IMG/VR virus record: IMGVR_UViG_2609459839_000004
Source of the DNA: a virus
Lineage: Duplodnaviria; Heunggongvirae; Uroviricota; Caudoviricetes
Direction: 5' to 3' (one strand)
Length of the DNA stretch: 18,695 bases
Of the stretch, positions 17,528 to 18,410 are shown one piece after another; the stretch's first letter is position 1, and each line of letters begins with the position of its first letter. The translations under genes and the position numbers were made by a program. The notes below the pieces were generated by a model. That model saw only the letters and a program-made list of their open reading frames with translations. It searched no databases and was not told where the DNA came from.

Positions 17528-18166
17528 ATGGGCAAAGGTGGCGGCAAGGCGCACACACCGCGTGAGGCGAAAGACAATCTCAAATCCACGCAGATGATGA
17601 GCGTGATTGATGCGATTGGTGAGGGACCGATAGAAGGCCCGGTGAAAGGCCTGCAGAGTATTCTGGTGAACAAAACCCCGCTGACGGACACGGACGGTAA
17701 TCCCGTGATACACGGTGTGACCGCGGTCTGGCGTGCCGGGGAGCAGGAGCAGACACCACCGGAAGGCTTTGAGTCCTCCGGCTCTGAAACTGTACTGGGT
17801 GTCGAAGTGACCAGGGCAAAACCGGTAACACGCACCATTACGTCAGCGAACATTGACCGCCTGCGGGTGACCTTCGGGGTGCAGTCACTGGTGGAGACCA
17901 CGTCAAAGGGTGACCGTAATCCGTCCTCTGTCCGTCTGCTGATTCAGTTACAGCGTAACGGTAACTGGGTGACAGAAAAGGACGTCACCATTAACGGCAA
18001 GACCACCTCACAGTTCCTGGCCTCGGTGATTCTGGATAATCTGCCTCCCCGGCCCTTTAACATCCGGATGGTCAGGGAGACGGCGGACAGCACCACGGAC
18101 CAGCTGCAGAATAAGACGCTGTGGTCGTCATACACCGAAATCATCGATGTGAAACAGTGCTATTGA
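17528..18166 (+). pseudogene. J: N-terminal ~212 codons of tail tip/central fibre protein J, truncated
   Basis: MGKGGGKAHTPREAKDNLKSTQ...[23 protein letters not shown] is collinear with the lambda J N-terminus (J is >1100 aa), then an in-frame stop. Confidence 0.75.
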
Positions 18167-18176
18167 AATAGCCTGG

Positions 18177-18410
18177 TATGCTTCGATACAGCAGGAGCCG
18201 AATGGCTGGAAGACCGTCACCACACAGTTCTACATCCAGGAATTCAGTGAGTATATTGCGCCACTGCAGGATGCTGTAGATCTGGAAATCGCAACGGAGG
18301 AAGAAAGATCGTTGCTGGAGGCATGGAATAAATATCGGGTATTGTTGAATCGTGTTGATACATCAACTGCACCTGATATTGAGTGGCCTGCAAATCCTGT
18401 CAGGGAGTAA
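18177..18410 (+). pseudogene. C-terminal fragment of tail fibre assembly protein (Tfa)
   Basis: Frame-3 translation ...[52 protein letters not shown] is the conserved Tfa C-terminus; no stf or tfa N-terminus upstream. 5' boundary approximate. Confidence 0.6.

What the first reader, a model, noticed from the sequence alone, without database searches (positions are those of the whole stretch)
18160..18260. Deletion junction 3: J truncated after ~212 codons and joined to a Tfa C-terminus
J homology is collinear up to ...EIIDVKQCY, then an in-frame stop. Within ~100 nt a different frame encodes the conserved Tfa C-terminal sequence ([42 protein letters not shown]). Most of J, lom, the side tail-fibre gene and the Tfa N-terminus are absent. 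Junctions 1 to 3 together remove most head-assembly and tail functions while leaving Q, cargo and lysis genes intact, which fits a cryptic prophage kept for its cargo.
Basis: partly seen in the sequence, partly recalled or inferred. Interest (0 to 1): 0.5.

Follow-up and report, generated by a model that had tools for sequence, protein, structure and literature searches.

The report
Prophage deletion scar: truncated J meets tfaX
This is a real but ordinary deletion scar in a decaying lambda-like prophage of E. coli: 6.7 kb running from inside the tail-tip gene J to the start of an old tail-fibre-assembly gene fragment (tfaX) has been lost, leaving two dead gene stubs side by side.

Summary
ORF 17528-18166 encodes residues 1-212 of the lambda tip-attachment protein J, aligned without gaps, and then stops. 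From 18163 a different frame encodes a Tfa C-terminal domain (Pfam Caudo_TAP, E 4e-25).

The nearest intact relative is the ompW-integrated prophage of E. coli E275a, which is 100% identical on both sides. Against it, the join is a 6,657-bp deletion with a 2-nt overlap (TA, 18161-18162) and no longer homology between the breakpoints. It removed:
- J codons 213-1157
- lom
- a 611-codon side-tail-fibre-like ORF
- a tfaD-like remnant
- a ybcY-like SAM methyltransferase
- the first 7-8 codons of an 89-codon tfaX ORF

This event did not cut the Tfa N-terminus away. tfaX is an old, conserved fragment found in K-12 DLP12 (b0563), in the phage PhiR49_1_star, and next to ybcY in 3,437 of 5,426 complete E. 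coli genomes.

The junction occurs in three assemblies of one lineage, in no complete genome, and in no metagenome contig. It is ordinary prophage decay by illegitimate recombination.

One oddity remains. All three large deletions in the window have exactly 2-nt overlaps that start with T, and the deleted DNA begins with CCC each time. This was noticed after the fact, with n=3.

The parts
17528..18166 (+). J' : truncated tip-attachment (host-specificity) gene J. It has 212 codons plus a TGA stop supplied by the right-hand DNA. Codon 212 is TA|T; in intact J it is TAC.
   Evidence: It aligns without gaps to lambda gpJ 1-212. Intact J in E275a is 1157 aa (L002 32081-35554). The exact 212-aa protein is EYE25686.1/EYE37945.1.
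18161..18162 (.). Deletion junction 3. The 2-nt overlap TA is shared by both parental sequences. 6,657 bp are missing here compared with E. coli E275a (L002 32716-39372).
   Evidence: The breakpoints share no longer homology: local alignment score 9, against 9.6 +/- 1.6 for shuffled sequence.
18163..18410 (+). 'tfaX : tail-fibre-assembly remnant. It lacks the start codon and the first 7-8 codons and retains codons 8-89 plus the stop. The conserved Tfa C-terminal domain lies at about 18231-18398.
   Evidence: It matches phrog_2341 positions 9-88 of 88 (E 3e-54). K-12 TfaX (b0563) is identical to the first 61 aa of the E275a ORF. Rfam IS009 hits it below threshold at 18164-18367 (112.5 bits; gathering score 117).
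18507..18695 (+). Tail-fibre/DUF4376 pseudogene fragment downstream of tfaX. It is already present in intact relatives, and the window ends at its internal stop.
   Evidence: PGAP annotation of the identical E275a sequence. phrog_1141 'tail fiber protein' matches residues 34-93 of ORF 18414-18695.
16607..17287 (+). Tail assembly gene I, intact. It is the last complete tail gene before the junction.
   Evidence: Pfam Lambda_tail_I. 100% identical to E275a.
17288..17527 (.). 240-nt I-J spacer, carrying a terminator-like hairpin (17462-17485, +) and a promoter-like plus terminator-like pair on the minus strand. It is unchanged by the deletion.
   Evidence: It is present and identical in E275a.

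Best explanation
The window is the right part of a lambda-like prophage integrated in ompW of an E. coli lineage (GenBank names one isolate 1-110-08_S1_C3). At 18161-18163 a single illegitimate, microhomology-mediated recombination event joined codon 212 of gene J to codon 8 of a pre-existing tfaX remnant, using a 2-nt TA overlap.

The event deleted 6,657 bp: J codons 213-1157, lom, a 611-codon side-tail-fibre-like ORF, a small frameshifted ORF, a tfaD-like remnant, a ybcY-like class I SAM methyltransferase, and the tfaX start.

Both products are dead stubs. J' keeps only the N-terminal region and the FNIII-A domain; it lacks the hub, Ig and receptor-binding domains. 'tfaX has no start codon.

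With the two other large deletions in the window, the prophage cannot build heads or tails.

Shown: the junction, its size, what was lost, the lack of homology at the breakpoints, and that tfaX was truncated earlier. Inferred: the molecular route (replication slippage or copy choice, or end joining after breaks) and the absence of any function for the stubs.
For: - Flanks are 100% identical to E275a on both sides of the join: window 16441-18162 = L002 30994-32715, and 18161-18695 = L002 39371-39905.
- Annotation of the intact locus lists the lost genes.
- J matches in more than 5,000 E. coli genomes all stop at 18162. No place in any of the 5,426 complete genomes spans the join.
- The breakpoints share only TA, and there is no IS element at the join.
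- The exact 212-aa product is recorded on three contigs in three assemblies. One is a 312-kb chromosomal contig (GCA_001912105.1), identical to the window over 11,168 bp and running on into ompW'-yciEFG-trpA-E.
- tfaX pre-exists in K-12 DLP12, in phage PhiR49_1_star, in ST131 and in 3,437 complete genomes.
Against: - Whether the three assemblies that carry the junction come from independent isolates is unknown.
- No reads were available to check coverage across the join.
- The shared TN|CCC signature of the three large deletions suggests the breaks may not be random. This bears on the mechanism, not on the existence of the deletion.
Confidence: 0.9

Rival explanations
1. The deletion cut into an intact stf-tfa module, so this one event produced both the Tfa C-terminal fragment and the loss of the Tfa N-terminus.
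For: The window itself shows only a Tfa C-terminus next to J'. The deletion did remove a side-tail-fibre-like ORF.
Against: In E275a, which is 100% identical in the flanks, the fragment is already an 89-codon ORF. It covers only Caudo_TAP profile positions 75-130 and lies beyond a ybcY-like methyltransferase. The same fragment is K-12 tfaX, occurs in the complete genome of phage PhiR49_1_star and in 3,437 complete genomes. Only profile positions 1-8 of phrog_2341 are missing from the window.
Confidence: 0.03
2. The junction is an assembly artefact: a false join in a short-read assembly inside the repetitive J gene.
For: J is a multi-copy repeat in E. coli genomes. Most members of the 90% protein cluster are fragments at contig ends. 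No complete (closed) genome has the join.
Against: The two sides share only 2 nt, so no k-mer overlap exists to cause a false join. Three assemblies carry the identical product. The 312-kb contig runs through all three junctions into the correct chromosomal flank.
Confidence: 0.04
3. The three large deletions are not independent random slippage events. They come from one shared break-prone or enzyme-cut motif (left breakpoints T-N|CCC, exact 2-nt overlaps), possibly in a single episode such as an abortive induction.
For: - All three junctions have exactly 2 nt of overlap, beginning with T.
- In all three the deleted DNA begins with CCC.
- In simulated triples, a run of at least 3 invariant columns occurs in 0.9%, and in 0.055% when the invariant T is also required.
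- P(overlap >= 2)^3 = 0.4%.
- The flanks of junctions 2 and 3 have zero SNPs against E275a.
Against: The pattern was found after the fact and n = 3. The right-hand breakpoints share no clear motif. No enzyme recalled from memory fits: the sites are not like hix/gix invertase sites and not like cosN. A fourth, 16-bp deletion has an ordinary 3-nt GCA overlap.
Confidence: 0.1
4. The arrangement arose by homologous or modular exchange with another phage (mosaicism), not by deletion.
For: Lambdoid right arms are mosaic. tfa C-termini are repeated: the window's tfaX region is 90% identical to the tfaD-like remnant of E275a.
Against: The left breakpoint lies inside J, with no similarity to the right side. 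Both flanks are 100% identical to one and the same prophage, in the same order. The result truncates an essential ORF with an immediate stop.
Confidence: 0.02

Closest known systems
Cryptic lambdoid prophage DLP12 of E. coli K-12 (nohD-aaaD'-tfaD-ybcY'-tfaX-appY-ompT)
   Same: It carries the same tfaD'-ybcY-tfaX right-arm block: E275a is 97.1% identical to K-12 over 1,146 nt. The same TfaX reading frame is present. DLP12 is also a prophage that kept its Q and lysis genes and lost most morphogenesis genes by deletion.
   Different: In DLP12 a terminase remnant (nohD/aaaD') is joined to tfaD, and ybcY is retained as a pseudogene. Here J codon 212 is joined directly to tfaX codon 8 and ybcY is gone. 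The integration site also differs: ompW here.
Intact ompW-integrated lambdoid prophage of E. coli E275a (NZ_CP035865.1)
   Same: It is 99.6-100% identical and in the same order across window 1397-18695. It has the same attR flank, ompW'-yciEFG.
   Different: E275a retains the 4,911, 5,686 and 6,657 bp that the window lacks. It carries an IS2 that the window lacks, and it lacks the IS150-like element at window 1-1396.
Lambda gpJ (tip attachment protein J; PDB 8iyk, 9e7m) and lambda Tfa
   Same: J' aligns to gpJ residues 1-212 without gaps. The tfaX C-terminus is 79% identical to the lambda Tfa C-terminus.
   Different: Lambda J has 1132 residues, including the hub, Ig and receptor-binding domains. 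Lambda Tfa is full length with an N-terminal part. Both are absent here.
Microhomology-mediated illegitimate recombination in E. coli (replication slippage, or alternative end joining)
   Same: The overlap is short (2 nt). There is no extended homology, no mobile element at the join, and the deletion is kilobase-scale.
   Different: The actual pathway was not tested. The recurrent TN|CCC left-breakpoint pattern is not, to my knowledge, a described feature of these pathways.

Membership tests
Lambda-type tip attachment protein J (TipJ/gpJ) | N-terminal region and FNIII-A domain in the same order as lambda gpJ | tested here: met
   phmmer to PDB 8iyk/9e7m aligns 1-212 to 1-212, E about 1e-110. 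Pfam PF24801, E 1.7e-41.
Lambda-type tip attachment protein J (TipJ/gpJ) | Hub domain (Phage-tail_3), Ig-like domains, tail-tip fibre and C-terminal receptor-binding domain | tested here: not met
   These domains are present in the 1157-aa E275a J (PF13550, PF24421, PF24489, PF09327, PF12421). The 212-aa product has none of them. It is a gene fragment, not a functional member.
Tail fibre assembly protein Tfa (Pfam Caudo_TAP, PF02413) | Conserved C-terminal region | tested here: met
   Profile positions 75-130 of 131, E 4.4e-25. 79% identical to lambda Tfa over aa 27-89.
Tail fibre assembly protein Tfa (Pfam Caudo_TAP, PF02413) | Full-length protein with the N-terminal part (profile 1-74) and a start codon | tested here: not met
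   Nothing matches profile positions 1-74. The ATG of the 89-codon ORF was deleted.
tfaX-type remnant (K-12 DLP12 b0563; phrog_2341) | Sequence identity to TfaX, and the 88-89-codon ORF form | tested here: met
   K-12 TfaX is identical to the first 61 aa of the E275a ORF. The window is 91% identical to K-12 at the DNA level. phrog_2341 positions 9-88 of 88, E 3e-54. The window copy lacks codons 1-7.
tfaX-type remnant (K-12 DLP12 b0563; phrog_2341) | Lies next to a divergently oriented ybcY-like SAM methyltransferase | tested here: not met
   This holds in E275a, ST131 strain 18044, PhiR49_1_star, K-12 and 3,437 complete genomes. In the window ybcY was removed by the deletion.
Defective (cryptic) lambdoid prophage | Loss of essential morphogenesis genes compared with an intact close relative | tested here: met
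   terL, W, portal, most of the protease, V, G, T, H, M, L, part of K and most of J are absent.
Defective (cryptic) lambdoid prophage | Fails to produce infectious particles on induction | not testable with these tools
   This needs mitomycin C induction and a plaque assay or electron microscopy.
Microhomology-mediated illegitimate deletion | Only a few nt of overlap, no extended homology, no IS or recombinase site at the join | tested here: met
   2-nt TA overlap. Local alignment of +/-100 nt is no better than shuffled sequence. The two flanks abut directly.

The most novel reading that the evidence does not exclude
The three kilobase deletions that removed the morphogenesis genes share one signature: an exact 2-nt overlap starting with T, and deleted DNA starting with CCC. 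The flanks are otherwise nearly free of SNPs. This could reflect a single sequence-preferring breakage or template-switch process acting on an induced or replicating prophage, rather than slow random decay.
Probability: 0.07. Interest if true: 0.45.

Novelty: already known. Interest (0 to 1): 0.1.

Why it matters
It matters little beyond annotation. The J and tfa pieces here should be labelled as pseudogene fragments (J' and 'tfaX), and the prophage as defective.

The comparison gives a clean, dated example of prophage decay. The intact ancestor-like form and the deleted form differ by three precise deletions with no SNPs in the flanks of junctions 2 and 3.

It also carries a caution. A Tfa C-terminal fragment at the right end of a lambdoid prophage is usually the conserved ybcY-tfaX remnant, not evidence of a recent deletion.

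The TN|CCC breakpoint pattern would matter only if it recurred in a large survey.

Tried and rejected
- **Exact 36-mer across the junction.** It was found once in IMG/VR. That contig is 100% identical to window 9774-18695 and ends at the window's last base, so it is most likely the same source and gives no independent support. It was found nowhere in the GTDB species representatives or in JGI metagenome contigs.
- **Prophage left end.** I tried to reach the host contig upstream of the window through the first ORF and through RusA. The first ORF turned out to be an IS150-type transposase ORF present in tens of thousands of contigs. The RusA look-up returned only other strains. The state of the prophage's left end in the source strain stays unknown.
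- **Strain origin.** A literature search for the strain name '1-110-08' found nothing useful.
- **Known sRNA in the I-J spacer.** I searched for AgvB and Pas sRNA papers. One preprint says PasB sits within a phage structural operon, but no sequence was available to compare. Rfam found nothing there, and the predicted fold is no better than shuffled sequence (z = -0.41).
- **Rfam IS009 hit at 18164-18367** (112.5 bits; gathering score 117). I rejected it as an independent RNA feature. Its well-aligned part is the tfaX coding sequence, and the start at the junction follows from forcing the full-length model onto it.
- **Breakpoint mechanisms considered from memory.** Hin/Gin/Pin invertase crossover sites (2-bp core), cosN, Dcm/EcoRII sites, and CRISPR PAMs for types I-E and I-F. 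None fits all three junctions. None was tested with a tool.
- **Antisense ORF 18230-18580.** It has no PHROG match and is treated as a chance ORF.

Full report
**1. The observation**

The + strand ORF 17528-18166 encodes 212 residues ending ...[11 protein letters not shown], followed by TGA.
- It aligns without gaps to residues 1-212 of lambda tip attachment protein J (PDB 8iyk and 9e7m, E about 1e-110).
- It contains the Pfam FNIII-A_GpJ domain (E 1.7e-41).

Immediately after it, in another frame, the sequence reads (A)[82 protein letters not shown] and ends at 18410.
- It matches Pfam Caudo_TAP only over profile positions 75-130 of 131 (E 4.4e-25).
- It is 79% identical to the lambda Tfa C-terminus.

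**2. Where the join is and what is missing**

Megablast of 17400-18695 against 5,426 complete E. coli genomes gave matches to intact J genes in more than 5,000 records. All of them stop at window 18162, and no place spans the join. Phage genomes behave the same way.

One genome, E. coli E275a (NZ_CP035865.1), matches both sides at 100% identity, but 6.7 kb apart. Local alignment to that locus (L002) gives the following:
- Window 16441-18162 = L002 30994-32715.
- Window 18161-18695 = L002 39371-39905.
- This is a 6,657-bp deletion with a 2-nt overlap, TA.
- Codon 212 of J is TA|T (TAC in the intact gene). The TGA stop comes from the right-hand DNA.

A local alignment of +/-100 nt around the two breakpoints scores 9, against 9.6 +/- 1.6 for shuffled sequence. 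No homology drove the event, and no mobile element sits at the join.

According to the E275a annotation and ORF and Pfam scans, the lost DNA holds:
- J codons 213-1157 (hub, Ig, tail-tip fibre and receptor-binding domains)
- an Ail/Lom-family gene
- a 611-codon ORF with a prophage tail-fibre N-terminal domain
- a small frameshifted ORF
- a tfaD-like C-terminal remnant
- a 222-aa class I SAM methyltransferase on the minus strand
- the first 20-22 nt of an 89-codon ATG-initiated ORF (L002 39351-39620)

**3. The Tfa fragment is older than the deletion**

That 89-codon ORF (MLPQHSD|IEIAWY...) is already N-terminally truncated in the intact relative, where PGAP calls it 'tail fiber assembly protein, missing N-terminus'. 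The same fragment turns up widely:
- Its first 61 residues are identical to K-12 TfaX (b0563) of cryptic prophage DLP12. The whole tfaD'-ybcY-tfaX block of E275a is 97.1% identical to DLP12.
- The block is 98.8% identical in the complete genome of Escherichia phage PhiR49_1_star, whose recorded host is ECOR13. There the methyltransferase is annotated as YbcY-like.
- ST131 strain 18044 has it downstream of a full stf-tfa pair and the remains of an invertible tail-fibre segment.
- A 251-nt probe across the 5' ends of ybcY and tfaX is intact in 3,437 of 5,426 complete genomes.
- PHROGs has an 88-position family for this ORF (phrog_2341). The window copy matches positions 9-88 (E 3e-54).

So the deletion's right end fell 7-8 codons inside tfaX. 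It did not cut a full-length tfa.

**4. Context**

The window is the late region of a lambdoid prophage inserted in ompW.

A 312-kb contig (GCA_001912105.1, LGMR01000013.1; L004) is identical to window 7528-18695. It continues into ompW'-yciE-yciF-yciG-trpABCDE. That flank is 100% identical to E275a for 3.25 kb and then carries 32 SNPs in the trp operon.

Compared with E275a the window differs as follows:
- Junction 1: 4,911 bp missing (terS C-terminus, terL, W, portal, most of the S49 protease), TT overlap at 12807-12808.
- Junction 2: 5,686 bp missing (V, G, T, H, M, L, K N-terminus), TC overlap at 16441-16442.
- A 16-bp deletion at 9507 that frameshifts a YdfR/DUF1327 gene.
- No IS2, which E275a has.
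- A different first 1,396 bp. This is an IS150-type element, and the window starts exactly at the ATG of its first ORF.

D, E, FI, FII, Z, U and I remain. Q, the Ser/Thr kinase and PP2C phosphatase pair, a DNA methyltransferase, three tRNAs, STnc100, holin, lysozyme and Rz are retained at full length.

Deletion 3 also removed two cargo-type genes, lom and ybcY. Nothing in the data shows selection for cargo.

**5. Is the junction real?**

The exact 212-aa product is in GenBank as EYE25686.1 and EYE37945.1 ('host specificity J from prophage domain protein', E. coli 1-110-08_S1_C3). It is recorded on three contigs in three assemblies.

A false join would need a shared k-mer, and only 2 nt are shared. 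The long contig passes through all three junctions into the correct chromosomal flank.

The junction 36-mer is otherwise found only in an IMG/VR provirus. That contig is 100% identical to window 9774-18695 and ends at the window's last base, so it is most likely the same source as the window. It is absent from the GTDB species representatives and from JGI metagenomes.

I put an assembly artefact at about 4%. Whether the three assemblies are independent isolates is not known.

**6. Mechanism**

The best-supported reading is a single illegitimate recombination event at 2-nt microhomology. It could be replication slippage (copy choice), or end joining after breakage. The molecular route is inferred, not shown.

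Neither stub is expected to function. J' lacks everything from the hub domain onward. 'tfaX has lost its ATG.

**7. One unexplained pattern**

- All three large junctions have exactly 2 nt of overlap. P(>=2)^3 = 0.4% for random breakpoints.
- The first overlap base is T in all three.
- In the intact reference the deleted DNA starts with CCC in all three...TT|CCCGG...TC|CCCTGG...TA|CCCGAA.
- CCC makes up 0.83% of trinucleotides in the locus.
- In simulated triples, a run of three or more invariant columns anywhere within +/-10 nt occurs in 0.9%. It occurs in 0.055% if the invariant T is also required.

This was noticed after the fact, with n = 3. The right-hand sites share no clear motif. No enzyme I could recall fits. 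I record it as a lead at about 7-10%, not as a finding.

**8. Comparison and verdict**

The closest known system is K-12 DLP12. It is a lambdoid prophage that kept its Q and lysis genes and the tfaD-ybcY-tfaX right arm while losing its morphogenesis genes. This window is another case of the same process, with a different junction (J codon 212 to tfaX codon 8) at a different integration site.

The phenomenon and the components are already known, and the truncated protein is already deposited. Interest is low (0.1). The useful corrections are the exact size and content of the deletion, and that the Tfa N-terminus was lost long before this event.

Noticed in passing
window 12807-12808, 16441-16442 and 18161-18162 (L002 16764/21675, 25309/30995, 32715/39372): All three large deletions have exactly 2-nt overlaps starting with T (TT, TC, TA). 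In the intact relative the deleted DNA begins with CCC each time. The simulated chance of such a shared run is 0.9%, or 0.055% if the invariant T is also required. The pattern was noticed after the fact, with n=3.
   Followed up: partly
window 1-1396: An IS150-type (IS3 family) element. The window starts exactly at the ATG of its 173-aa first ORF, followed by an rve-type ORF at 519-1370. Similarity to the E275a prophage begins only at 1397, just upstream of hokD. It may mark a further rearrangement or deletion of the prophage's early region.
   Followed up: partly
window 9507 (L002 13447-13462): A 16-bp deletion compared with E275a, with a 3-nt GCA overlap, inside the YdfR/DUF1327 gene of the lysis cassette. 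It shortens the product from 104 to 86 aa.
   Followed up: partly
window 17288-17527: A 240-nt spacer between tail genes I and J. As far as I recall, lambda has no such gap. It has a near-consensus promoter-like site on the minus strand (17424-17397, 11 of 12 matches) and terminator-like hairpins on both strands (17462-17485 +, 17317-17301 -), which would bound a minus-strand transcript of about 100 nt. There is no Rfam match and the fold z-score is -0.41. A 2026 preprint places the prophage sRNA PasB inside a phage structural operon, but its sequence was not compared.
   Followed up: partly
window 18164-18367: Rfam IS009, a K-12 'intergenic sequence' candidate RNA, matches at 112.5 bits, just under its gathering score of 117. 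The well-aligned part is the tfaX coding sequence, so that Rfam family appears to be built on tfa-remnant DNA rather than on a distinct RNA.
   Followed up: partly
window 4323-5827, 6395-7444, 7494-8007, 8033-8368: Cargo downstream of Q:
- a Ser/Thr protein kinase and a PP2C phosphatase, as an overlapping gene pair
- a DNA methyltransferase
- three tRNAs (annotated as Ile, Arg, Arg in E275a)
- the sRNA STnc100 (132 bits)
- an IraM-like anti-adapter gene on the minus strand
.
   Followed up: no
L002 36280-38115 (E. coli E275a; not in the window): The side-tail-fibre position holds an uninterrupted 611-codon ORF. It has a prophage tail-fibre N-terminal domain (aa 5-130) followed by about 480 residues with no Pfam match. 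PGAP annotates only the first 417 nt, as a pseudogene. It may be an unusual tail-fibre or enzymatic tail-spike variant.
   Followed up: no
L002 8627-9957 (E. coli E275a): E275a carries an IS2 insertion between the PP2C phosphatase gene and the next ORF. It is absent from the window, and the 5-nt overlap at window 6018-6022 fits a target-site duplication.
   Followed up: no
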